Source: Minisyncoccota bacterium
GTDB taxonomy: Bacteria > Patescibacteriota > Minisyncoccia > Phycocordibacterales > XYD1-FULL-46-19
DNA length: 50,911 nt
Reading direction: 5' to 3'
NCBI GenBank assembly: GCA_041664425.1
Contig: JBAYKU010000004.1
Span: forward strand, 1-50,911
The translations under genes were made by a program, and so were the position numbers. The notes beneath the pieces are model-generated. The model was not told the DNA's origin. It worked only from the letters and a program-made list of their open reading frames with translations, and searched no databases. Each line of letters begins with the position of its first letter. Position 1 is the stretch's first letter. Positions 5,105 to 50,911 of this stretch are shown piece by piece.

Positions 5105-6817
5105 TCATTGTTTGCAAAAGATATTATACCAGACATCGAGGCCTATTATACTAAATAAAATCACAGAATGATCGTTAACCCCAGTTAAATGTTCATCAAT
5201 TAATTTTTTGACAACTTCCCAATCAAAGTATTCTAACACCAGCTTACTCTCTTTTAGTCTGGAAAGATATGGTAATAAAACGCAATCATCCTTAATCCAT
5301 TCGGAAATCGGTAAGCCAAAACCACATTTTTTTCGCAAGACAAAATCCGAAGGGAAATATTTTAAGGCGATTTCTTTTATAGGAGTTTTTTCGCCTAAAT
5401 CACCAATCTTTGTGTCTAAATTATATCCTGCTTCTATAACCGATTCGTAGAGAAAAGGTACCCTGTTTTCAATATTTGCTGCCATTCCAGCCTTGTCTTG
5501 CCTGAGAAGCACATGTGGTAAATAGGTGTTCATGTCGTAAAAACTTAATCTATATTCCCTGCTTAATTCTGCGGTTTTTTGAACAAATTGTTTTCTTTCA
5601 GATAATGACCCTCTGGGCATTTTTAGAATCTTAGAAATCATAACTGGATCAGAAAAAGCATTGGATAGAAGAAGATCATCATCATTATTGATATCTTTTT
5701 GAACATATCTTTTGTATCCAAGAAATATCTCGTCCGCACCCTCTCCTGTTAGTAATACTTTTACATATTTTCTGGCAAATTTTGCGAGAAGATACATTGG
5801 CACAGTATTTGGATGGACAATCGGTCCATCCAGATGATAAGTTATTTTTTCAAAATTATCCACGAAGTCTTTTTTTGTAAAAATAATCTTGTGGTGAATT
5901 GTGCCAAGCTCCTTTGCTACAAAGTCCGAATATTTAAATTCATTCCATTCGCTGTCATTCAGGCCTATCGAAAATGAATGTAAGGCAATTGGAGAATTCT
6001 TTTGCGCTATATAGCTAACCACGCTTGAATCTATACCTCCGCTTAGTTGAATACCGACAGGAGCGTCGCTCATTAGATGACTTTTAACACTCTCAGTTAG
6101 GATATTTTCTATATTTTGTTTTTTTGAACCAACCTTTTCCAGCTCGAAATATTTATTTTTTATATATGTATTAGATTTCAATGAGTAGTCGAGGTATTCC
6201 CCTTGCTGAATTTTAAATATGTTTTTAAATAAAGTTTTTTCATCTGAAATGTGTCTGAACACCATGTGTTCAAAAAGTTTTTCTTCTTCGAGTCGGAATT
6301 GAAAATCTGGTAGGGCACTAAAAGATTTTATCTCTGACGCCCAGGCAAAATACTCAGGGGTGTCCAAAAAGTAAAGAGGCTTAATGGCCATTTTATCTAA
6401 AGCTAAGACCAGTGACTGCTTTTTTATGTCGAGAAAGCTGAATGCGTACATTCCTTTGATCATTTTGAGTACTTCTTCTATTTGGCAGATCTGCAGTATC
6501 TCAAAAAGGGTTGAAGTATCGGAAGAAGACACAAGATCTTTCCCTGCAAGATACTTCTTCCTTGGCACGTTATGGTTATAAATTTCTCCGTTATAAGAAA
6601 GGATAAAATTATCGTTTACAAATGGCTGGTCTGCGTTTTTGGATGTATCAACAATCGACAGTCTGGTATGCCCTATTGTGATATTTTTAATAGAGATAAC
6701 TCCTGTGGCGTCGCCACCACGATGTTGGATAAGATCAAGCATCCCTCCGACAAAAGCCTCTTTTTTTTCTTTACCAAATTTATTTTTTTTATCAATAAAA
6801 CCAACAATGCCACACAT
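5105..6817 (-). CDS. asparagine synthetase B-type glutamine amidotransferase (Ntn Cys2 plus PP-loop synthetase domain)
   Basis: Starts MCGIVGF, placing the catalytic Cys right after Met. Has the PP-loop SGGIDSS. Length is 570 aa. Confidence 0.85.
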   Translation of the reverse strand: MCGIVGFIDKKNKFGKEKKEAFVGGMLDLIQHRGGDATGVISIKNITIGHTRLSIVDTSKNADQPFVNDNFILSYNGEIYNHNVPRKKYLAGKDLVSSSDTSTLFEILQICQIEEVLKMIKGMYAFSFLDIKKQSLVLALDKMAIKPLYFLDTPEYFAWASEIKSFSALPDFQFRLEEEKLFEHMVFRHISDEKTLFKNIFKIQQGEYLDYSLKSNTYIKNKYFELEKVGSKKQNIENILTESVKSHLMSDAPVGIQLSGGIDSSVVSYIAQKNSPIALHSFSIGLNDSEWNEFKYSDFVAKELGTIHHKIIFTKKDFVDNFEKITYHLDGPIVHPNTVPMYLLAKFARKYVKVLLTGEGADEIFLGYKRYVQKDINNDDDLLLSNAFSDPVMISKILKMPRGSLSERKQFVQKTAELSREYRLSFYDMNTYLPHVLLRQDKAGMAANIENRVPFLYESVIEAGYNLDTKIGDLGEKTPIKEIALKYFPSDFVLRKKCGFGLPISEWIKDDCVLLPYLSRLKESKLVLEYFDWEVVKKLIDEHLTGVNDHSVILFSIIGLDVWYNIFCKQ

Positions 6818-39984: not shown

Positions 39985-41793
39985 TTATTCCAACACCGCC
40001 TTGATTCTTCGCACCCCGGCGGCGACGGCTTCTTCCTTGGTGATTTTGAAAGTTCCCAGGTCGGCGGTATTGGCAACATGAGGACCACCGCAGAATTCGG
40101 TGCTGAATGATCCAATCTTATAAACCTTGACCATATCGCCGTACTTAGACAGGTCAAAAGACAGGGTGGTGACGATTTTCTGAGCTTCTTCTTTTGGTAA
40201 TTCAAGCATCTCCACTGGAATTTTCTCGGCAATTTTTTCGTTAACTAGGTCATCGACTGCTTTTAATTGCTCGGCGGTCAGTTTTTCGGGCCAATTAAAA
40301 TCAAAACGCAGGCGTTCGGTGGTGATATTGCTCCCCTTTTGCACAATGTCGGTGCCGAGGACTTGGCGCAAAGAAGCGAGCAGGAGGTGAGTGGCAGTGT
40401 GATATTTGGTCTCCATCTCGCCCGTGCCGGCTAGTCCCCCTTTGAATTTTTGCTCCGCGCCAGCTTTTGAGAGATCTTGATGTTGTTTCATCTCTTTTTG
40501 AAAACCATCCATATCAACAACTACTCCTTTTTCTTTAGCGATTTCTAAAGTTAATTCTATTGGAAAACCATCCTCTTGATATAAATCAAATGCTTGTTTA
40601 CCAGTTAAAGAGAAAGGAATATTTTCAAAGGCTTTTATATCTTTTACATCTTGGTTAATCGGTCCTTTAATTTTAATTTCCAATTTTTTTAGACCTCTTT
40701 CCAGGGTTAATCGAAACTTATTTTCTTCGGCGCTAATAGCCTCGAGGACTTTAGTTTTGTTGGCAGTCAATTCAGGATAAAAATCACCATACTGAGCGAT
40801 GATTTGCTCGGCTAGGGTCACCAGAGAGCCGGCAGGTAGGCCAATCTGGTCGGCAAAGCGCACAGCGCGACGCAGGAGACGACGGAGAACATAACCACGG
40901 TCAGTATTGGAAGGTAGAGCACCATCGGCGATCATAAAAACAGCGGATCGGAGGTGGTCCGCCACTATTCTTTCGGCTTTGAGGTCGGATTTTTGGGCTT
41001 GGGCGCGAATGGTCGAGATTAGCGGAGCAAACAGGTCAGTATCATAAACATTATTTTTACCCTGCAAGACCATAGTGAGACGTTCGAGACCGGCACCAGT
41101 ATCTACGTTCTTTTGAGCCAGCTTGCCGATCACTTGGCCGTCCTTTTTCTCGTATTCCATAAAAACGTCGTTCCAGATCTCGACAACATCACGACGGCCA
41201 TCAGCTGATTGATATTCTTCTAGGGTAATGTCACCCAGACCAGCTTCGGTGACATCATAAAACATTTCCGAATCGGGACCACAAGGGCCGTTGTCACCAG
41301 GACTCCACCAATTGTTTTCGGCCGGTAAATAAAAAATCCGATTAGCTGGCACGCCGACAGATTGCCAGATCTGGGCCGACTCTTCATCGCGGGGAGCATT
41401 TTCGTCGCCAGCAAAAACCGTCACATAGAGACGCGCGGGATCGAGACCGAAGCCTTCATTTTTATCAGTGAGCAATTCCCAACTCCACTTGATCGCCTCG
41501 GCTTTAAAATAATCACCGAGTGACCAATTGCCGAGCATTTGGAAAAAAGACAGGTGAGTATTGTCGCCAATATCATCAATATCAGTAGTGCGAACGCATT
41601 TTTGAACATCGGCAATCCTCTGACCGGCCGGATGTTTTTGACCGAGGAGATAGGGCACTAGCGGCATCATACCGGCCGTATTAAAGAGAACCGAAGGATC
41701 ATTTTCGGGAATGAGCGGAGCGGACGGAATAATAGTGTGTCCCCGATCGGCAAAAAATTTTAGAAACCGGTCGCGAATTTCATTGGAAGTCAT
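39985..41793 (-). CDS. alaS: alanyl-tRNA synthetase, short form (catalytic, tRNA-recognition and editing domains; no C-Ala domain)
   Basis: Starts MTSNEIRDRFLKFFADRGHTIIPSAPLIPENDPSVLFNTAGM. Has the editing-domain HTATHLL and CGGPHV motifs. Length is 602 aa. Confidence 0.9.
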   Translation of the reverse strand: MTSNEIRDRFLKFFADRGHTIIPSAPLIPENDPSVLFNTAGMMPLVPYLLGQKHPAGQRIADVQKCVRTTDIDDIGDNTHLSFFQMLGNWSLGDYFKAEAIKWSWELLTDKNEGFGLDPARLYVTVFAGDENAPRDEESAQIWQSVGVPANRIFYLPAENNWWSPGDNGPCGPDSEMFYDVTEAGLGDITLEEYQSADGRRDVVEIWNDVFMEYEKKDGQVIGKLAQKNVDTGAGLERLTMVLQGKNNVYDTDLFAPLISTIRAQAQKSDLKAERIVADHLRSAVFMIADGALPSNTDRGYVLRRLLRRAVRFADQIGLPAGSLVTLAEQIIAQYGDFYPELTANKTKVLEAISAEENKFRLTLERGLKKLEIKIKGPINQDVKDIKAFENIPFSLTGKQAFDLYQEDGFPIELTLEIAKEKGVVVDMDGFQKEMKQHQDLSKAGAEQKFKGGLAGTGEMETKYHTATHLLLASLRQVLGTDIVQKGSNITTERLRFDFNWPEKLTAEQLKAVDDLVNEKIAEKIPVEMLELPKEEAQKIVTTLSFDLSKYGDMVKVYKIGSFSTEFCGGPHVANTADLGTFKITKEEAVAAGVRRIKAVLE

Positions 41794-44586: not shown

Positions 44587-45795
44587 TTAAATTGTTGGCA
44601 AATTGACTGGCGGTTCGCCACGCTTCGATGGAATACGTTGCAAGGTTGGGGTCGTTGCCACCGAGCCTGGGAAGTGAAAAATGGTAGCAATCTCCTCGGT
44701 CGTCAGGAGCATTGGTTTTTTACTGGCCGGCGGATAAAAATAGGTTCTATTGCAATAATACTGAAAATGCTTCTTTTTTAGGCGTCTCGTTCGCCACTCA
44801 GTCGGATCTTCCCAAAAATAATCGAAGTTAGTCATGAGAGATGGCTTGAGACTATTGAGCCGGTCGTCTTTGTTGACCCCAAATTGTCTAAAAGCCGAGT
44901 TGAGTCCAACACCAACGTTAGGTTTAAGTCCTTCGGTGGCGGCATAGAGGGTGCGCATACCGACATCAAAACCCATCTTACTGAGATTGCGCTCGACAGA
45001 ATCAAGCAGGGCTTTCTCACCTGGTGAAGAGCTTAATTTGATCCAGCTACTCATATCTGCCGTATCAGTGTTGCGCTTCATCAGTTCGTCTACTACTTTT
45101 AAGCCATCTTTTTTCCAATCTGATTTTGAAGCCATAATCATAATCTGAATCCAAATCTGCTCCGTGGGTTTAATCGAGGAAAGAAATTCCAACAAGGGAG
45201 TCATAGGATCAATTTTAAATTCCTCTTTAGGGTCTTTTTCTAATTCAAAATCAATATAGGTTTTGATCGGGTAAACATCAGCCTTGTTTAATTTAAACTC
45301 CCAAGATTTAATATCCCAAGCCGAACCAGGCTGGCCATAATTAACACCGAGAACATAGTCATAGGAGGCTTCCGAAACTTCCACTTCTGGATATTGAGAA
45401 TAGATTCGCGCCTCGACAATATTTTTAAAGAATTTGGGAATCTGAAAATAAAAATGAATTTGCCCACCAATAGAAACCAACTCCAAAGAAAACCAGCCCC
45501 GAATACTACCACCAACATACTTATCGATCATTGTTCCTTCGTAGGTCTGATAAAAAACTTCTAATAAAAGCTCCATCGCTTTTGGTGACTTGGTGATTTC
45601 TTTAGGAATCTTAACTTCTAACAAAACTCGTTCTTCACTGTAAATATAATTGGCTCGAATGTAACGTAAATATATTTCCCAAAAAACAAACATGGTCAAA
45701 ATCGGTAACCATAGATAAGACCACTGCATGAAGTTCATCAGCAATCCCCCTAAAGATTGTAGGAAAAATTCAGTCATACAAAAACGCTCTCTCAA
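44587..45795 (-). CDS. hypothetical membrane protein (402 aa or slightly shorter)
   Basis: N-terminal hydrophobic hairpin followed by a soluble domain. No family assigned. Confidence 0.55.
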   Translation of the reverse strand: MRERFCMTEFFLQSLGGLLMNFMQWSYLWLPILTMFVFWEIYLRYIRANYIYSEERVLLEVKIPKEITKSPKAMELLLEVFYQTYEGTMIDKYVGGSIRGWFSLELVSIGGQIHFYFQIPKFFKNIVEARIYSQYPEVEVSEASYDYVLGVNYGQPGSAWDIKSWEFKLNKADVYPIKTYIDFELEKDPKEEFKIDPMTPLLEFLSSIKPTEQIWIQIMIMASKSDWKKDGLKVVDELMKRNTDTADMSSWIKLSSSPGEKALLDSVERNLSKMGFDVGMRTLYAATEGLKPNVGVGLNSAFRQFGVNKDDRLNSLKPSLMTNFDYFWEDPTEWRTRRLKKKHFQYYCNRTYFYPPASKKPMLLTTEEIATIFHFPGSVATTPTLQRIPSKRGEPPVNLPTI

Positions 45796-46911: not shown

Positions 46912-49900
46912 TTAGTCTAAAACAATATTAATAAGCTTATTAGGCACGTAGATTATTCTAATGATTTTTTTGTCATTTGTCCACTTCTGAATGGTTGGTA
47001 GCGATAGGGCAATTTTTTTGGCTTCTTCCTCCCCCATCCCCGGCTCTACTTTAAAGCTATCTCGGACTCGGCCATTGACTGAAACGACCATTGTCAACCC
47101 CTCAGCCTTAATTTTTTTCTCATCAAAAACTGGCCATAAAGCCTGATGAACAGATTTTTTACCACCAAGCTTCAACCAAAGCTCCTCAGCCAAAAAGGGC
47201 GTAAACGGAGCCAATAAGGTTAGAAAATCAAGCATGATCGCCTGGGGAATAACGGGGGCCTTCTCTAGAAAATTAGCAAAAATCATCATCGTCGAGATGG
47301 CGGTATTAAAACTAAAACTTTCAATATCAGCACTGACTTTTTTAATCGCTTTATGCAACTCACTTTCCAACTCTGGCGCTTCTCCACTCTTTTCGACTTT
47401 TTCAGTCGCGCGCCACACTCGCTCCACAAAACGGCGACAACCAATCATGTTTTCAGTACTCCAAGATTTAGACATTTCAAATGGGCCCATAAACATTTCA
47501 TAGAGACGCAAAGTATCAGCACCATAGAGTTTGACCATGTCATCGGGATTGATGACATTGCCCCAGCGCTTGCTCATCTTGCGACTATCTTCGCCTAAAA
47601 TCAGACCCTGATTTTTTAATTGTTGGAAAGGCTCGGGAGCGCCAACCACCCCGAGGTCAAACAGGAACTTATGCCAAAAACGAGCGTAGATGAGATGACG
47701 AGTGGCATGTTCAACTCCGCCGACATACATATCAACAGGTAGCCATTGATCCATTTTTTTCTTGTCGCCGAGAACTTTTTTATTTTTAGGATCAATAAAA
47801 CGCAGATAATACCAAGATGAACCGGCCCATTGGGGCATGGTGTTGGTCTCGCGTTTAGCTTTATCAACACAAACAGGGCATTTGACATTGACCCATTTAT
47901 CAATATCGGCCAGAGGTGACTCGCCTGTGCCGGTCGGGGCATAGCTTTTAACTTTTGGTAGGGTGACTGGCAAATCTTTTTCCGGCACTGGCACCACGCC
48001 ACATTTAGCGCAGTGAATCATGGGAATCGGTTCGCCCCAATAACGCTGACGGGAAAAAACCCATTCGCGCAGTTTATATTTGGTGACAATATGACCACGA
48101 ACAAATTTGGTGATTTGTATTTTGGCTTTATCGTTGGCGAGACCATTGAACTTATCTGAATTGATTAACAATCCATCGCCTATATAGACTGACTGCGAGG
48201 CGTCCTCTACCACCCTCTCGTTTGGCTCACCCAAAATGGCTCGATTCCAAATAACAGTCTTGATCGGCAAATTAAATTTTTTGGCAAAGGCCCAATCGCG
48301 CTCATCATGAGCTGGTACAGCCATAATCGCCCCGAAACCATAATCCGGCAAAACATAGTCGGCCACAAACACTGGCAAATGTTCGCCATTGGCAGGGTTA
48401 ACTACCTCCAAACCCTTGAGTAAGACACCGGTTTTTTCTCTCCCTTCAGCTGTTCTCTCCATTTCCGTTTTTTTGGCTGTGGCTATGACATATTTTTTCA
48501 CTTCATCCATATTTTGGATATCCTCGGCAAAACGATTGACGATCTTATGCTCCGGGGCCACCACCATATAAGTCGCACCAAACAAAGTGTCGGGGCGGGT
48601 AGTAAAAATTTTCAAGCGTTCTAGGGCATGGTCGAGAACCACGGGCTCCACTCGACCGCAAGTATGCGGCTTTTCAGCCTCAAATTGAATTAATTCTCCA
48701 CCTAAGTTTTTATGAATAACAGCAGGCTGATTGTCTCCAATAACCGTATCGGTCAGATCTTGTAAAATTTTAATTTCACCAGCGTTAGCTTTGATTTTTG
48801 CAGTATCAAATTTCCAATTAAAGAAAATTTTTAGCGGAAGAGCCATATTTTTTTCTTTAACATCAGGTTCAATTAGGCCAGAAACCAAAACCGTTTTTGC
48901 AATGGGTGATTCCAAACGCTCTAAAATTTTCATCGCCACCACTGTCCCTAAACTGTGACCAATCAGAATCGTATTGGCATCAAATTTAGCGTTTTGAAGA
49001 ACATAATCAACTTGCTGATCAATTTGAGGTAAGTAAGGATCTGGTAAATCGAGAGCTGTTACCCGATGGCCACGCTTTTCTAATTCACTTTTTAACCACG
49101 GGAAAAAGCAAAGCTGGGAACTACTTTTAAAACCATGCAGGAGCACATAATTAAATTTTTTAGCCACAATAAAATCAATTTCTGCCCCCTCACTGCGACC
49201 GATCCAATTGCGCTGTGATTCTTTGACCGATTCCGGCCAATTCAAACCATCGAGATCGGTCAACAACCGATCGGCATAGTTGGTAATTTTGAGCACCCAC
49301 TGACGCATCGGCTTTTTCTCTACTTCTGAACCACAACGCTCACACTTGCCATCTTCGAGATCTTCGTTGGCTAGACCAGTCTGACAAGATGGGCACCAAT
49401 TGATCGGCTCAAATGATTCATAGGCTAAACCTTTTTTGTAAAGTTGAAGAAAAATCCATTGTGTCCATTTGTAATACTCTGGATCAGTCGTGTCTACTTC
49501 TCGATCCCAGTCGTAGCTGAAACCAATCATTTTCAACTGGCGACGAAAGTTATCAACATTTTTTTTGGTTGAAACCATCGGGTTGACTTTGTTTTTAATG
49601 GCATAGTTTTCCGCTGGCAAACCAAAAGCATCCCAACCCATCGGATGTAGGACAGAAAAACCACTCATTCGCTTGTAACGACTATAGATGTCAGTGGCGG
49701 TATAACCCTCTACGTGGCCCACATGGAGACCTTCGCCCGAAGGGTAGGGAAACATGTCTAAAACGTAGCATTTAGGCTTCTTGTCAGCATCACCAGTTTT
49801 ATTGAGATTATTTTTCTCCCACTCTTTAGACCATTTTTTCTCGATTTTGAGATGATTATATTTTACTTGTCCTTCTATTTTTTTTTCAGCAGTTTTAGAT

Positions 49901-49920
49901 GTTTTTTGTGGTTTTTTCAT
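46912..49920 (-). CDS. leuS: leucyl-tRNA synthetase carrying a ~180-aa inserted domain
   Basis: Contains FPYPSGEGLHVGH, NWIGRSEGAEIDF, FTTRPDTLFGATYMVVAPEH and KMSKRWGN. At 1002 aa it is longer than the roughly 800-880 aa expected for bacterial LeuRS. Confidence 0.93.
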   Translation of the reverse strand: MKKPQKTSKTAEKKIEGQVKYNHLKIEKKWSKEWEKNNLNKTGDADKKPKCYVLDMFPYPSGEGLHVGHVEGYTATDIYSRYKRMSGFSVLHPMGWDAFGLPAENYAIKNKVNPMVSTKKNVDNFRRQLKMIGFSYDWDREVDTTDPEYYKWTQWIFLQLYKKGLAYESFEPINWCPSCQTGLANEDLEDGKCERCGSEVEKKPMRQWVLKITNYADRLLTDLDGLNWPESVKESQRNWIGRSEGAEIDFIVAKKFNYVLLHGFKSSSQLCFFPWLKSELEKRGHRVTALDLPDPYLPQIDQQVDYVLQNAKFDANTILIGHSLGTVVAMKILERLESPIAKTVLVSGLIEPDVKEKNMALPLKIFFNWKFDTAKIKANAGEIKILQDLTDTVIGDNQPAVIHKNLGGELIQFEAEKPHTCGRVEPVVLDHALERLKIFTTRPDTLFGATYMVVAPEHKIVNRFAEDIQNMDEVKKYVIATAKKTEMERTAEGREKTGVLLKGLEVVNPANGEHLPVFVADYVLPDYGFGAIMAVPAHDERDWAFAKKFNLPIKTVIWNRAILGEPNERVVEDASQSVYIGDGLLINSDKFNGLANDKAKIQITKFVRGHIVTKYKLREWVFSRQRYWGEPIPMIHCAKCGVVPVPEKDLPVTLPKVKSYAPTGTGESPLADIDKWVNVKCPVCVDKAKRETNTMPQWAGSSWYYLRFIDPKNKKVLGDKKKMDQWLPVDMYVGGVEHATRHLIYARFWHKFLFDLGVVGAPEPFQQLKNQGLILGEDSRKMSKRWGNVINPDDMVKLYGADTLRLYEMFMGPFEMSKSWSTENMIGCRRFVERVWRATEKVEKSGEAPELESELHKAIKKVSADIESFSFNTAISTMMIFANFLEKAPVIPQAIMLDFLTLLAPFTPFLAEELWLKLGGKKSVHQALWPVFDEKKIKAEGLTMVVSVNGRVRDSFKVEPGMGEEEAKKIALSLPTIQKWTNDKKIIRIIYVPNKLINIVLD
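48625..49164 (-). other. alpha/beta-hydrolase-like (YdeN/RBBP9 serine-hydrolase-like) domain inserted between the GRSEGAEIDF and FTTRPDT blocks of LeuRS
   Basis: Residues ~253-432 read YVLLHGFKSSSQLCFFPWLKSELEKRGHRVTALDLPDP...ILIGHSLGTVVAM...DLTDTVI...EKPH. These supply a GHSLG nucleophile elbow plus candidate Asp and His. Hand counts give 18/60 G+C at 48781-48840 inside the insert, against 31/60 at 48601-48660 in flanking leuS. Confidence 0.6.
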
Positions 49921-50007: not shown

Positions 50008-50047
50008 ACACCCCGAATTCTTGCCTATCGGCAAGAATTCGGGGTGT
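50008..50047 (-). terminator. rho-independent terminator downstream of the ParB-like gene
   Basis: 18-bp perfect stem ACACCCCGAATTCTTGCC tatc GGCAAGAATTCGGGGTGT, followed on the minus strand by TTCTTTTTTATATTTT. Confidence 0.8.
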
Positions 50048-50060
50048 GTACACGCAGGAG

Positions 50061-50735
50061 TCAACCATCAATACCAACCAGCTCCCAACCGCGATAGAGA
50101 TCGGGGTTGTTATTTCTAACCCTCTGATCGATCGGCGGTTTTTCATCGACCAAACACACCTCATTCCAATCAATCAGATCGGCTCGTGGTGGCGCTAGAA
50201 CATTCTTGATGACGATGGCTTCGACTGTTGTTCCGACCCGATTGGCCAAAAAACAACGATGCATCCCATCTGGCAAGTAGGCTTCGCCAGAAGAGCACAA
50301 CTCAATAATCGGAGGGAGGTAGTTGGCCAACAGAACTTGTCCAGTCTTGTTGTGCCGACCCAAGATAATCATTGGTGTCTTCTTGGCAAAACCATTGGAG
50401 GCGCAGGAGCCATCAAAAACGCTGTTGAATTCCTGCAAGAACTCCATAATCTTGCGACCATGAACGAAAGTCTGGATAACCTTGAAAGAAAACGGTGAGA
50501 CTCTCTCTAGAGAGAATTCACTTTGAGCATAGAGTTGGAAACCGCCATTGGCGAGACGAACTCGGCGTAACATTTTGTCCAAATAATCCTCCTTGGGCAT
50601 AATCCGCACCTGCTCCACTCGACCCACTTGGGCCAACTCTCTCAGAGATATTACAGTCGCCTTCCTCGGTACCAAAGCATCGGCAATACCAGTGTTTCTT
50701 TTGAACTCCCCTATCGACATCGGCTTGAAAGCCAT
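50061..50735 (-). CDS. ParB/sulfiredoxin-fold (ParB-like nuclease domain) protein; start moved to MAFKPMSIGEF
   Basis: Contains AYLPDGMHRCFLANRVGTTVEAIVI, which matches the DGxHR core of ParB-like nuclease domains. An AAGGAGG SD lies 8 nt before the ATG at 50735. The track's TTG start at 50807 would run into the IS inverted repeat. Confidence 0.5.
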   Translation of the reverse strand: MAFKPMSIGEFKRNTGIADALVPRKATVISLRELAQVGRVEQVRIMPKEDYLDKMLRRVRLANGGFQLYAQSEFSLERVSPFSFKVIQTFVHGRKIMEFLQEFNSVFDGSCASNGFAKKTPMIILGRHNKTGQVLLANYLPPIIELCSSGEAYLPDGMHRCFLANRVGTTVEAIVIKNVLAPPRADLIDWNEVCLVDEKPPIDQRVRNNNPDLYRGWELVGIDG

Positions 50736-50805
50736 TTCAAAGACCTCCTTCTCTATGTTAAACTCCTCTATAAGTGAATTTCTAAGAACCCTAAATTCCG
50801 TTCTC

Positions 50806-50911
50806 AATTAGGACACTCTGTAATAGAGTAACCACATGAAAAAAGCCAAGGATTTGTCTTCGGCCGAACGGTTGGAGATTAAGATTTTGCTCGACAAAGG
50901 ATATTCAAAAC
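50806..50911 (+). mobile_element. 5' end of an IS30-family insertion sequence: terminal inverted repeat AATTAGGACACTC (50806..50818) and the first 25 codons of the transposase (from ATG 50836)
   Basis: Translates to MKKAKDLSSAERLEIKILLDKGYSK. The ..ER.EI..LL..GYS.. segment is the typical N-terminal HTH of IS30 transposases. The IR is the reverse complement of 94..106. Confidence 0.7.

What the first reader, a model, noticed from the sequence alone, without database searches (positions are those of the whole stretch)
48625..49164. Alpha/beta-hydrolase-like domain inserted into leucyl-tRNA synthetase just before the editing domain
Seen in sequence: bacterial LeuRSs have only a short linker between the conserved blocks NWIGRSEGAEIDF and (I)FTTRPDTLFGA (for example about 15 residues in the E. 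coli and T. thermophilus enzymes as I recall them). This protein has ~180 extra residues there. They read like a YdeN/RBBP9-type serine hydrolase: LLHG...FPWLKSELEKRGHRV...DLPDP, the nucleophile elbow GHSLG, a later Asp (DLTDTVI) and a His (EKPH). The reading frame is intact. The insert is AT-rich (18/60 G+C at 48781-48840 versus 31/60 at 48601-48660 by hand count), suggesting later acquisition. There are no intein junction residues. Inference: a catalytically plausible esterase domain grafted next to the CP1 editing domain of an aaRS is unusual. Aminoacyl-tRNA is itself an ester, so an auxiliary deacylase/proofreading or regulatory role can be proposed, but this is purely speculative.
Basis: partly seen in the sequence, partly recalled or inferred. 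Interest (0 to 1): 0.8.

Follow-up and report, generated by a model that had tools for sequence, protein, structure and literature searches.

The report
Serine hydrolase nested inside leucyl-tRNA synthetase
The leucyl-tRNA synthetase in this window carries a complete, apparently active RBBP9/YdeN-type serine hydrolase domain in a loop at the start of its proofreading domain; this is the usual form of the enzyme across a large group of ultra-small (Patescibacteria/CPR) bacteria, and I found no paper that describes it.

Summary
leuS (46912-49920, minus strand, 1002 aa) has 187 residues (aa 251-437, window 48610-49170) where T. thermophilus and E. coli LeuRS have a 10-residue hairpin turn.

- **Fold:** the insert passes Pfam PF06821 (37.6 bits, cut-off 22). 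Its model (pLDDT 84) matches YdeN 1UXO and RBBP9 at TM about 0.8.
- **Catalytic residues:** in 166 nested copies, Ser323 is kept in 165, Asp391 (D or E) in 156, and His419 in all 166.
- **Host enzyme:** the LeuRS body is canonical. HIGH, KMSKS and the CP1 editing motifs are intact.
- **Not an artefact, not rare:** 112 of the 120 closest LeuRS clusters carry the domain, and so do 46 GTDB species genomes.

Relatives combine it with up to three NUDIX domains and one HAD domain. The hydrolase sits at three different sites in LeuRS. Rare copies are nested in ValRS, AlaRS, TsaD, Der, UvrA, Fmt and SecA, and free-standing copies occur in CPR bacteria and DPANN archaea.

My best reading is an autonomous aminoacyl-bond serine hydrolase nested in permissive loop tips. 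A cis proofreading or deacylase role is neither excluded nor supported. I found no literature on this architecture.

The parts
46912..49920 (-). leuS coding sequence (1002 aa plus stop): a bacterial-type leucyl-tRNA synthetase that carries the nested hydrolase
   Evidence: ORF listed. TIGR00396 scores 1025.7 bits, cut-off 548.4. The full-length AF2 model has pLDDT 87 and matches E. coli LeuRS 5ON2/4AQ7 at TMt 0.83-0.84.
48610..49170 (-). Nested RBBP9/YdeN-type alpha/beta serine hydrolase domain (aa 251-437). The hydrolase fold itself runs from about aa 257 to 432.
   Evidence: PF06821 scores 37.6 bits (cut-off 22). PF00561, PF12697 and PF12146 also pass their cut-offs. phmmer against PDB gives 1UXO at 4.8e-12 and RBBP9 at 8e-7. 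The AF2 model has pLDDT 84 and pTM 0.85. Foldseek gives TM 0.81 to 1UXO and 0.80 to RBBP9.
49132..49137 (-). His262-Gly263, the 'HG' motif after strand beta1. Its role as the oxyanion-hole motif is inferred from general alpha/beta-hydrolase knowledge.
   Evidence: His is kept in 164 of 166 nested copies and Gly in 165 of 166.
48946..48960 (-). Nucleophile elbow GHSLG (aa 321-325). Ser323 is the predicted nucleophile.
   Evidence: Ser is kept in 165 of 166 nested and 77 of 80 free-standing copies. It aligns with RBBP9 Ser75.
48748..48750 (-). Asp391, the predicted catalytic acid
   Evidence: It aligns with RBBP9 Asp138. The column holds D in 108 and E in 48 of 166 nested copies, and D in 79 of 80 free-standing copies.
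48664..48666 (-). His419, the predicted catalytic base
   Evidence: Invariant in 166 of 166 nested and 80 of 80 free-standing copies. It aligns with RBBP9 His165.
49171..49209 (-). NWIGRSEGAEIDF (aa 238-250): the LeuRS strand that forms the N-terminal arm of the hairpin from which the hydrolase buds
   Evidence: Coordinates. In the full-length model the strand spans 242-252, with a 4-residue linker to hydrolase strand 257-261.
48574..48609 (-). IFTTRPDTLFGA (aa 438-449): the returning hairpin strand and the threonine-rich CP1 editing motif (TTRPDT, aa 440-445)
   Evidence: Coordinates. T440, T441, R442, D444 and T445 are invariant in the 59-sequence alignment. The strand spans 435-440 and starts 2 residues after the last hydrolase helix, 426-432.
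48076..48609 (-). Remainder of the CP1 editing domain (about aa 438-615), including AHDERD (aa 537-542, window 48295-48312)
   Evidence: PF13603 scores 195.8 bits, in two stretches that flank the insert. H538, D539, R541 and D542 are invariant.
49714..49725 (-). HIGH signature of class I synthetases (HVGH, aa 66-69)
   Evidence: Located. H66, G68 and H69 are invariant.
47566..47580 (-). KMSKS signature (KMSKR, aa 781-785)
   Evidence: Located. M782 and K784 are invariant.

Best explanation
**What is shown.** The segment is a real, independently folding serine hydrolase domain of the RBBP9/YdeN family (Pfam PF06821), about 178 aa long. Its catalytic apparatus is complete: an HG motif at 262-263, Ser323 in GHSLG, Asp391 and His419. 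It is nested at the tip of the first beta-hairpin of the CP1 editing domain, joined by linkers of only about 4 and 2 residues. The host is otherwise a canonical bacterial-type LeuRS, with the HIGH, KMSKS and CP1 editing motifs all intact. This is the normal LeuRS of a large Patescibacteria (Paceibacteria-type) group, not a peculiarity of this genome.

It belongs to a wider habit of these organisms. They nest small, compact hydrolase modules into loop tips of class Ia synthetases, and occasionally of other housekeeping proteins. The modules are this alpha/beta hydrolase, NUDIX and HAD, plus a histidine phosphatase in IleRS.

**What is inferred.** The domain works as an autonomous serine hydrolase. 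By analogy with RBBP9 it would cleave an amide or ester bond to a single, probably hydrophobic, amino acid with a free alpha-amine, that is, an aminopeptidase or aminoacyl-esterase activity. LeuRS would act mainly as a constitutively expressed carrier. LeuRS keeps its own synthetic and CP1 editing functions, and the hydrolase does not replace them.
For: **Fold and family**
- Pfam PF06821 passes its cut-off.
- The nearest solved sequences are YdeN and RBBP9.
- The AF2 model has pLDDT 84, and Foldseek gives TM 0.81 and 0.80 to 1UXO and RBBP9.

**Catalysis under selection**
- In 166 nested copies Ser is kept in 165, the acid (D or E) in 156, His in 166 and the HG motif in 164-165.
- The domain as a whole is only 46% identical between the window and its relatives, against 64% for the LeuRS core.

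**Host intact**
- TIGR00396 scores 1025.7 bits.
- TTRPDT and AHDERD are invariant.
- The full-length model matches E. coli LeuRS at TMt 0.84.

**Real and widespread**
- The exact protein is recorded on 4 contigs, including ENA ERZ27249449 and Logan SRR6484324.
- 112 of the 120 closest LeuRS clusters carry the domain.
- 46 of the 80 loci kept from a scan of GTDB species-representative genomes are LeuRS with the domain at this site. Their records are titled Vogel-, Kaiser-, Uhr-, Doudna- and Taylorbacteria and Paceibacterota.

**Autonomy rather than dedicated coupling**
- The same domain sits at three different LeuRS loops. Site 1 is this one, site 2 is the variable CP1 loop, and site 3 is just after the CxxC knuckle.
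- It is also nested inside ValRS, AlaRS, UvrA, Der, TsaD and Fmt, and is joined to SecA and peptidase M1 sequences. Several of these occur in more than one data source.
- It exists as free-standing genes of about 190 aa in CPR bacteria and DPANN archaea.
- NUDIX and HAD modules use the same LeuRS sites. An IleRS carries a nested His_Phos_1 domain.
- Module content is patchy on the LeuRS core tree.

**Family chemistry**
- RBBP9 is a serine aminopeptidase that needs a free alpha-amine. A trapping variant of it captured Leu/Ile, Phe, Tyr and Trp (PMC8866121).
- The fusion to aminopeptidase N and two neighbouring M24 peptidase genes fit an amino-acid-releasing role.
Against: - No activity or substrate has been measured for any nested copy, or for any CPR-type free-standing copy.
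- LeuRS is by far the commonest host. The other hosts are 90%-identity clusters of 1-4 members. This hints at some LeuRS-specific benefit that 'carrier only' does not explain.
- Five of the nine host types handle aminoacyl-adenylate or aminoacyl-tRNA-type ligands (LeuRS, ValRS, AlaRS, TsaD, Fmt). Free-standing copies lie next to an ileS gene in 3 loci and next to a PTH2 peptidyl-tRNA hydrolase gene in 1 genome. These could reflect functional coupling.
- RBBP9's alpha-amine-anchoring residues are not clearly conserved. Ser76 is Leu324 here, and the loop that holds Glu108 aligns ambiguously. Transfer of substrate specificity from RBBP9 is therefore weak.
- I had no model coordinates, so I could not measure where the hydrolase active site points relative to the synthetic and editing sites.
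Confidence: 0.55

Rival explanations
1. This is the first reader's idea: a cis-acting auxiliary quality-control module. The hydrolase would deacylate mischarged aminoacyl-tRNA(Leu), or hydrolyse released non-cognate aminoacyl-adenylates. That would add a second hydrolytic checkpoint beside CP1.
For: - RBBP9-family chemistry is cleavage of an amide, ester or thioester bond to a single hydrophobic amino acid with a free alpha-amine, including Leu/Ile. Aminoacyl-tRNA has this chemical form.
- Most nested copies are in synthetases that have editing domains: LeuRS, ValRS and AlaRS.
- Two of the three LeuRS sites are in or at CP1.
- A free-standing homologue lies 5 bp downstream of a PTH2 peptidyl-tRNA hydrolase gene. 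Others lie directly downstream of ileS.
- The catalytic triad is strictly kept.
Against: - The CP1 editing residues are invariant in hydrolase-bearing LeuRS, so nothing needs replacing.
- The domain also sits in UvrA, SecA, Der and peptidase M1, which have no aminoacyl-tRNA substrate.
- Site 3 is outside CP1.
- The same sites take NUDIX and HAD domains, whose chemistry does not fit deacylation.
- Nested copies are about electrically neutral, with mean net charge -0.4. There is no basic RNA-binding character.
- Genes next to the free-standing copies are diverse.
Confidence: 0.2
2. Amino-acid supply. In organisms that cannot make amino acids, an aminopeptidase domain on the synthetase would release N-terminal hydrophobic residues from scavenged peptides. 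This would raise the local supply of leucine for LeuRS, or of Val and Ala for the other hosts.
For: - RBBP9 is an aminopeptidase, and Leu/Ile were among the amino acids trapped on it.
- Fusion to aminopeptidase N (P0270) and neighbouring M24 peptidase genes.
- The hosts are enriched for synthetases of hydrophobic or small amino acids.
- From general knowledge, not tested here: CPR bacteria are broadly auxotrophic.
Against: - Nothing suggests channelling, and a diffusible amino acid gains little from tethering.
- The non-synthetase hosts are unexplained.
- RBBP9 prefers aromatic residues, not Leu.
- The specificity-determining residues are not conserved.
Confidence: 0.12
3. Self-protection of the drug target. 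The nested hydrolases (alpha/beta, NUDIX, HAD) would destroy aminoacyl-adenylate-mimicking antibiotics at the enzyme they inhibit. Examples of such antibiotics are the agrocin-84 toxic moiety, microcin-C-like peptide-nucleotides and aminoacyl-sulfamoyl adenosines.
For: - Precedent exists for hydrolases that give immunity to processed peptide-nucleotide antibiotics. In PMC7157772 most cloned MccH-like genes made E. coli resistant to one form of microcin C. Two were from Parcubacteria, and at least one of those (strain DG742) was inactive.
- NCBIfam has a curated IleRS with a fused GNAT domain, NF040702.
- The co-nested modules target ester/amide, pyrophosphate and phosphate bonds, which together could cover the bonds of a nucleotide-type inhibitor (my inference).
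- LeuRS is a known target of such compounds: solved structures include LeuRS bound to the agrocin-84 toxic moiety TM84 and to leucyl-sulfamoyl analogues.
Against: This is purely analogical. No biosynthetic or immunity gene context appears in the window or in the related loci. It does not explain the non-synthetase hosts.
Confidence: 0.06
4. Non-catalytic passenger. The domain would be a structural or regulatory appendage (ligand sensor, interaction platform), or an old selfish in-frame insertion that persists because it cannot be deleted cleanly from an essential gene.
For: - The domain evolves faster than the host: 46% against 64% identity, and only 22% of its columns are at least 80% conserved.
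- Its distribution across essential genes resembles that of inteins.
- Presence and absence on the LeuRS tree are patchy, and clean empty sites exist.
Against: - Near-perfect retention of Ser, His, the acid and the HG motif across 166 nested copies argues for retained catalysis.
- There are no terminal repeats or target-site duplications and no intein motifs.
- Copies in different hosts share at most about 45% identity, so there is no sign of recent mobility.
Confidence: 0.05
5. Assembly or gene-calling artefact: a chimeric contig that joins a hydrolase gene into leuS.
For: None, beyond the lower GC3 of the insert.
Against: - The frame is intact across both junctions.
- An identical protein is recorded on 4 contigs from ENA and Logan assemblies.
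- More than 100 homologues from many projects have the same junctions.
Confidence: 0.01

Closest known systems
RBBP9 / YdeN serine hydrolase family (Pfam PF06821; PDB 1UXO B. subtilis YdeN; 2QS9, 7OEX and 9FCR human RBBP9)
   Same: Same compact alpha/beta-hydrolase fold of about 180 aa (TM 0.80-0.81). Same G-H-S-x-G nucleophile elbow. The Asp and His align with RBBP9 D138 and H165. Passes the Pfam gathering score.
   Different: Known members are free-standing proteins, whereas this one is nested inside another enzyme. Sequence identity is only 22-25%. RBBP9's alpha-amine contacts are not conserved (Ser76 is Leu here). The CPR/DPANN subfamily has its own conserved positions (Q303, W369, D388, E425-P426). 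Its substrate is unknown.
Canonical bacterial LeuRS (TIGR00396; T. thermophilus 1H3N/2BYT, E. coli 4AQ7)
   Same: Same domain order, with CP1 after ZN1. Same HIGH, KMSKS, threonine-rich and AHDxRD editing motifs and the same overall fold (TMt 0.84).
   Different: About 177 extra residues replace the 10-residue turn of the first CP1 hairpin. None of the LeuRS structures matched by sequence or fold carries such a domain: all are 880 residues or shorter.
Synthetases with appended or inserted accessory enzyme domains
   Same: A synthetase in a reduced-genome organism gains an extra catalytic or ancillary domain in the same polypeptide. Examples seen here are IleRS with GNAT (NCBIfam NF040702) and the M. 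penetrans MetRS with tandem N-terminal ancillary domains (PMC13215547). From general knowledge, archaeal ThrRS carries a DTD-like editing domain and ProRS carries an INS/YbaK-type one.
   Different: In the M. penetrans MetRS the extra domains are N-terminal, and (from general knowledge) the ProRS and ThrRS domains belong to dedicated editing families. Here a general-purpose alpha/beta hydrolase is nested internally. It is combined variably with NUDIX and HAD modules at several loop sites.
Inteins
   Same: An in-frame insertion of an autonomous fold into conserved essential proteins, with patchy phylogenetic distribution and clean 'empty sites' in relatives.
   Different: No Hint fold, no Cys/Ser/Thr at the N-junction, and no His-Asn plus Cys/Ser/Thr at the C-junction. 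The insertion is in a variable loop tip rather than a conserved active-site motif. There is no evidence of splicing or homing.

Membership tests
RBBP9/YdeN serine hydrolase (Pfam PF06821 Ser_hydrolase) | Score at or above the Pfam gathering threshold | tested here: met
   37.6 bits for the excised insert and 33.2 bits in the full protein, against a cut-off of 22.
RBBP9/YdeN serine hydrolase (Pfam PF06821 Ser_hydrolase) | Compact alpha/beta-hydrolase fold close to the solved members | tested here: met
   The AF2 model has pLDDT 84 and pTM 0.85. The top Foldseek hits are 1UXO at TM 0.81 and RBBP9 (9FCR, 2QS9, 7OEX) at TM 0.78-0.80. The next family falls to TM 0.75 or below, with longer targets.
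RBBP9/YdeN serine hydrolase (Pfam PF06821 Ser_hydrolase) | Ser-Asp-His triad, with Ser in a G-x-S-x-G elbow, aligned to RBBP9 S75/D138/H165 | tested here: met
   S323, D391 and H419 align to S75, D138 and H165. Across 166 nested copies they are kept in 165, 156 (D or E) and 166 copies.
RBBP9/YdeN serine hydrolase (Pfam PF06821 Ser_hydrolase) | RBBP9-type substrate contacts for a free alpha-amine (Glu108, Ser76, Tyr99) | tested here: inconclusive
   The Ser76 position is Leu324, and is Leu in 85% of nested copies. The loop that holds Glu108 aligns ambiguously.
RBBP9/YdeN serine hydrolase (Pfam PF06821 Ser_hydrolase) | Serine-dependent hydrolytic activity | not testable with these tools
   This needs an enzyme assay with a Ser323Ala control.
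Bacterial-type leucyl-tRNA synthetase (NCBIfam TIGR00396 leuS_bact) | Equivalog HMM score above the curated cut-off | tested here: met
   1025.7 bits against 548.4, matched in two stretches that flank the insert.
Bacterial-type leucyl-tRNA synthetase (NCBIfam TIGR00396 leuS_bact) | Class I HIGH and KMSKS signatures | tested here: met
   HVGH at aa 66-69 and KMSKR at aa 781-785. Both are conserved in the alignment.
Bacterial-type leucyl-tRNA synthetase (NCBIfam TIGR00396 leuS_bact) | CP1 editing domain with the threonine-rich motif and the conserved Asp of AHDxRD | tested here: met
   PF13603 scores 195.8 bits. TTRPDT at 440-445 and AHDERD at 537-542 are invariant across 59 sequences.
Bacterial-type leucyl-tRNA synthetase (NCBIfam TIGR00396 leuS_bact) | Overall fold of solved bacterial LeuRS | tested here: met
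   Foldseek gives TMt 0.83-0.84 and rmsd 4.0 A to E. coli LeuRS 5ON2/4AQ7.
Bacterial-type leucyl-tRNA synthetase (NCBIfam TIGR00396 leuS_bact) | Leucylation of tRNA(Leu), and being the only LeuRS of the genome | not testable with these tools
   Only a 50.9-kb window is available, and no second leuS lies in it.
Intein | Hint fold, a nucleophile at the first residue, and a C-terminal His-Asn followed by Cys/Ser/Thr | tested here: not met
   The junctions read EIDF|IVAKK and ERLK|IFTT. There is no Hint or intein Pfam hit.
Dedicated aminoacyl-tRNA editing or deacylase families (CP1, INS/YbaK, AlaX/tRNA_SAD, DTD, PTH) | Sequence or fold homology of the insert to one of these families | tested here: not met
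   The insert matches only alpha/beta-hydrolase families in Pfam and NCBIfam and in the listed top 50 Foldseek PDB matches.

The most novel reading that the evidence does not exclude
Patescibacterial class Ia synthetases may have evolved a previously unrecognised, modular layer of cis-acting hydrolytic 'clean-up' chemistry. The modules are an RBBP9/YdeN-type serine hydrolase, NUDIX, HAD and histidine-phosphatase domains, nested around the catalytic and editing sites. They would act on the enzyme's own products, by-products or inhibitors: mischarged aminoacyl-tRNA, released aminoacyl-adenylates, Ap(n)A, or aminoacyl-adenylate-mimicking antibiotics. In this reading the hydrolase in this window is a second, non-CP1 deacylase or esterase that contributes to fidelity or to self-immunity.
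Probability: 0.22. Interest if true: 0.85.

Novelty: new variant of a known kind. Interest (0 to 1): 0.62.

Why it matters
Synthetases are among the most conserved enzymes known. In bacteria they rarely gain new catalytic domains, and known editing domains belong to a few dedicated families. Here a general serine hydrolase with an intact triad is nested in the LeuRS of a large group of ultra-small bacteria. It occurs together with variable NUDIX and HAD modules.

- **If the hydrolase acts on aminoacyl esters or adenylates,** it would be a new type of translational quality control or antibiotic self-protection.
- **If it is autonomous,** it shows how genome-reduced, host-dependent microbes pack housekeeping enzymes into essential proteins by nested domain insertion.

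Either way the question can be tested directly with a recombinant protein and a Ser323Ala control. The architecture also affects annotation. NCBI names some of these LeuRS proteins 'alpha/beta fold hydrolase' or 'hypothetical protein', which can make leuS look absent from such genomes.

Tried and rejected
1. **Searching with the insert alone in the word-indexed protein database.** It returned only free-standing hydrolases and wrongly suggested that the fusion was unique. The full-length search and the exhaustive phmmer search corrected this.

2. **Idea that LeuRS sites 1 and 3 are the two adjacent CP1 linker strands,** so that the domain keeps one spatial position. Rejected. An explicit alignment puts site 3 right after the CxxC knuckle (C637..C640|G641), outside CP1.

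3. **Recent mobile-element origin.**
   - There are no terminal direct or inverted repeats at the junctions, only short AT-rich chance matches.
   - GC and GC3 are within the genome's range.
   - Copies in different hosts share at most about 45% identity.

4. **Conserved gene neighbourhood of the free-standing homologues.** Clustering of neighbours plus a Pfam scan of 58 neighbours showed no dominant partner. Amidase_3, HD and RecO each appeared 3 times, IleRS 2-3 times, and PTH2 and PheRS once each.

5. **RNA-binding character.** The net charge of nested copies is about 0.

6. **Profile search seeded with the copies from non-LeuRS hosts.** It returned mostly free-standing proteins, plus a few joined to a SecA domain. 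It did not show that the ValRS, AlaRS, TsaD, Der or UvrA insertions are large families. They are 90%-identity clusters of 1-4 members, although several are seen in more than one data source.

7. **First genome-contig scan, with a 22-sequence alignment.** It failed for lack of a conserved stretch. A 5-sequence alignment worked.

8. **Literature.** Eight searches and five papers read turned up no description of LeuRS with an alpha/beta-hydrolase, NUDIX or HAD domain.

9. **tRNA and Rfam scans of the window** found nothing.


Full report
**1.

The minus-strand ORF at 46912-49920 encodes a 1002-aa protein. It is unambiguously a bacterial-type leucyl-tRNA synthetase: TIGR00396 scores 1025.7 bits against a cut-off of 548.4, matched in two pieces. 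NWIGRSEGAEIDF lies at aa 238-250 and IFTTRPDTLFGA at aa 438-449. The 187 residues between them correspond to window 48610-49170, and the frame is intact.

With the insert removed, the flanks align without a break to T. thermophilus LeuRS (1H3N/2V0C) and E. coli LeuRS (3ZGZ/4AQ7). Each reference has exactly 10 residues at this point. Close relatives that lack the insert have 8-12 residues there. The net gain is therefore about 177 residues, and it replaces the turn of the first beta-hairpin of the CP1 editing domain.

**2. What the insert is**

The excised segment passes the Pfam gathering thresholds of PF06821 Ser_hydrolase (37.6 bits, cut-off 22), PF00561, PF12697 and PF12146. By sequence, its closest solved relatives are B. 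subtilis YdeN (1UXO, E = 4.8e-12) and human RBBP9 (E about 1e-6).

An AlphaFold2 model of the domain has pLDDT 84 and pTM 0.85, with the alternating strand-helix pattern of an alpha/beta hydrolase. Foldseek places it next to 1UXO (TM 0.81) and RBBP9 (TM 0.78-0.80), well ahead of other alpha/beta hydrolases.

I aligned 246 domain copies together with RBBP9. Ser323 (in GHSLG), Asp391 and His419 fall in the columns of RBBP9 Ser75, Asp138 and His165. Conservation among 166 nested copies is as follows:

| Position | Kept in nested copies |
|---|---|
| Ser323 | 165 of 166 |
| Asp391 (D or E) | 156 of 166 |
| His419 | 166 of 166 |
| His262-Gly263 | 164 and 165 of 166 |

The domain as a whole evolves faster than its host. 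Identity between the window and its relatives is 46% for the insert and 64% for the LeuRS core, and only 22% of insert columns are at least 80% conserved. Retention of the catalytic residues against that background is good evidence for selection on catalysis.

**3. The host enzyme is intact**

HVGH (aa 66-69) and KMSKR (aa 781-785) are present. The CP1 threonine-rich motif TTRPDT (aa 440-445) and AHDERD (aa 537-542) are invariant in a 59-sequence alignment.

The full-length model has pLDDT 87 and pTM 0.75. It keeps the hairpin strands 242-252 and 435-440, and the hydrolase buds from the hairpin tip through linkers of about 4 and 2 residues. The model superposes on E. coli LeuRS at TMt 0.83-0.84. 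The hydrolase therefore does not replace the CP1 editing site.

**4. Not an artefact and not a singleton**

The identical protein is recorded on four contigs, including ENA ERZ27249449 and Logan SRR6484324. Of the 120 closest LeuRS clusters (50-80% identity), 112 contain the domain. A scan of GTDB species-representative genomes kept 80 loci:
- 46 are LeuRS with the domain at this same site. Their records are titled Vogel-, Kaiser-, Uhr-, Doudna- and Taylorbacteria and Paceibacterota.
- 34 are free-standing genes of about 190 aa, in Patescibacteria and in DPANN archaea.

NCBI names several of these LeuRS proteins 'alpha/beta fold hydrolase' or 'hypothetical protein'.

**5. The wider pattern, which changes the interpretation**

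- **Other modules in LeuRS.** Relatives combine the hydrolase with up to three NUDIX domains (one or two before the hydrolase, one in the variable loop of CP1). Some also have a HAD domain after CP1, giving proteins of up to 1564 aa.
- **Three hydrolase sites in LeuRS.** Site 1 is the one seen here. Site 2 is the variable CP1 loop, which is also the NUDIX site. Site 3 lies directly after the CxxC knuckle that follows SRQRYWGEPIP.
- **Other hosts.** An exhaustive phmmer search of 1.84 billion representative proteins also found the domain nested inside ValRS, AlaRS, UvrA, Der/EngA, TsaD and Fmt. It is joined to SecA and aminopeptidase N sequences as well. These are small clusters of 1-4 members, but several are seen in more than one data source.
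- **A related case in IleRS.** An IleRS gene lies next to a free-standing hydrolase gene in three loci. In at least two of them the IleRS carries a nested histidine-phosphatase domain.
- **Labile module content.** Module content is very patchy on a neighbour-joining tree of the LeuRS core. P0020 and P0021 are identical over the first ~450 residues and nearly so from about residue 590 of P0020 onwards. They differ in the middle of CP1, with or without NUDIX, which points to cassette exchange by homologous recombination.
- **No sign of recent mobility.** Hydrolase copies at different sites and in different hosts share at most about 45-50% identity. There are no terminal repeats at the junctions. 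The insert's GC3 (0.305) is within the range of the window's other ORFs (0.393 +/- 0.081).

**6. Mechanism**

*Shown:* this is a compact RBBP9/YdeN-type hydrolase with a conserved triad, tightly nested in a loop tip of an intact LeuRS.

*Inferred:* it is catalytically active. By analogy with RBBP9, it would cleave a bond to a single amino acid. RBBP9 is a serine aminopeptidase that requires a free alpha-amine. A trapping variant captured Leu/Ile, Phe, Tyr and Trp, and the authors note it could cleave amide, ester or thioester bonds (PMC8866121).

Several facts make an autonomous hydrolase carried on a constitutively expressed host the most economical reading (confidence 0.55):
- The same domain occupies several unrelated loops and hosts.
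- It shares these loops with NUDIX and HAD domains.
- It exists free-standing.
- It leaves CP1 untouched.

The family chemistry matches aminoacyl-ester hydrolysis. LeuRS is overwhelmingly the preferred host. Most hosts handle aminoacyl-adenylate or aminoacyl-tRNA ligands. One free-standing homologue lies 5 bp downstream of a PTH2 peptidyl-tRNA hydrolase gene. Against it, genes next to the free-standing copies are otherwise diverse, and the nested domains are not basic.

Lesser rivals are amino-acid supply (0.12), detoxification of adenylate-mimic antibiotics (0.06), a non-catalytic or selfish passenger (0.05) and an artefact (0.01).

**7. Comparison with what is known, and novelty**

The domain meets every testable membership criterion of PF06821. 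The exception is the RBBP9-specific alpha-amine contacts, which are not clearly conserved. The host meets all testable LeuRS criteria. Intein criteria are not met. The insert has no homology to dedicated editing or deacylase families.

Extra enzyme domains on synthetases are known. Examples are IleRS with GNAT (NF040702) and the M. penetrans MetRS (PMC13215547). I found no description of an alpha/beta hydrolase, NUDIX or HAD domain nested in LeuRS in eight full-text searches. The AARS Online review of synthetase domains does not mention a hydrolase at all.

I rate it a new variant of a known kind. The sequences have been in public databases for years, apparently without comment.

**8. Limits**

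- No coordinates of the models were available, so I could not measure the orientation of the hydrolase pocket relative to the tRNA path.
- The trees are simple distance trees.
- Taxon names come from record titles and are partly unreliable.
- No biochemical data exist for any CPR-type member.

Noticed in passing
Related proteins P0021, P0070, P0073, P0118, P0125, P0052 (LeuRS relatives; not in the window): LeuRS of related Patescibacteria carry up to three NUDIX domains (PF00293) and one HAD domain (PF13419) in addition to the serine hydrolase. These proteins reach 1100-1564 aa. The window's LeuRS has only the hydrolase.
   Followed up: partly
Related proteins P0167, P0194, P0198, P0180, P0206, P0212, P0171, P0270: The same hydrolase subfamily (31-44% identity to the window's insert) is nested inside ValRS, AlaRS, UvrA, Der/EngA, TsaD and Fmt. 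It is also joined to SecA and aminopeptidase N sequences. These are small clusters, but several are seen in more than one data source.
   Followed up: partly
L085:381-3899 (+); also L062 and L064: A 1173-aa IleRS has a histidine-phosphatase domain (PF00300) nested at aa 507-671. It is followed about 50-100 bp downstream by a free-standing YdeN-like hydrolase gene and then recO. The same gene order appears in three Patescibacteria loci.
   Followed up: partly
L003:5645-5995 and 6001-6543 (also L004): The free-standing homologue P0001 (41% identity to the insert) lies 5 bp downstream of a PTH2 peptidyl-tRNA hydrolase gene. The contig looks archaeal, with NurA, RadA and UvdE genes.
   Followed up: partly
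P0020 versus P0021 (closest named relatives, 75-78% identical to the window LeuRS): The two LeuRS are identical over residues 1-452 and nearly so from about residue 590 of P0020 onwards. They diverge only in the middle of CP1, where one has a NUDIX insert of about 150 aa and the other does not. This mosaic suggests recent homologous-recombination exchange of a domain cassette.
   Followed up: partly
Proteins P0140, P0145, P0162, P0169, P0179, P0232 (representative search): Several LeuRS-like entries begin exactly at the start of the hydrolase domain (hydrolase at residues 1-14 onwards) and lack the N-terminal catalytic half. They could be contig-end fragments, mis-called starts or genuinely split leuS genes.
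   Followed up: no
window 50008-50047 (-): A perfect 18-bp-stem hairpin followed by a T-run, typical of an intrinsic terminator. It lies 14 nt after the stop of the upstream 248-aa ORF (50061-50807, -) and 88 nt before the leuS start codon, so leuS is probably transcribed on its own.
   Followed up: yes
window 39985-41793 (-): The AlaRS gene in the window encodes only 602 aa (tRNA-synt_2c plus tRNA_SAD), much shorter than typical bacterial AlaRS, and has no nested hydrolase.
   Followed up: no
window 1-50911: No tRNA or tmRNA gene, and no Rfam family at gathering score, anywhere in the 50.9 kb. Nearly all ORFs are on the minus strand.
   Followed up: yes
window 50061-50807 (-) and 44587-45795 (-): The 248-aa ORF upstream of leuS has no Pfam hit on record. 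One of the ORFs downstream of leuS matches only DUF8128. Both are conserved next to leuS on the independent contigs L001 and L002.
   Followed up: no
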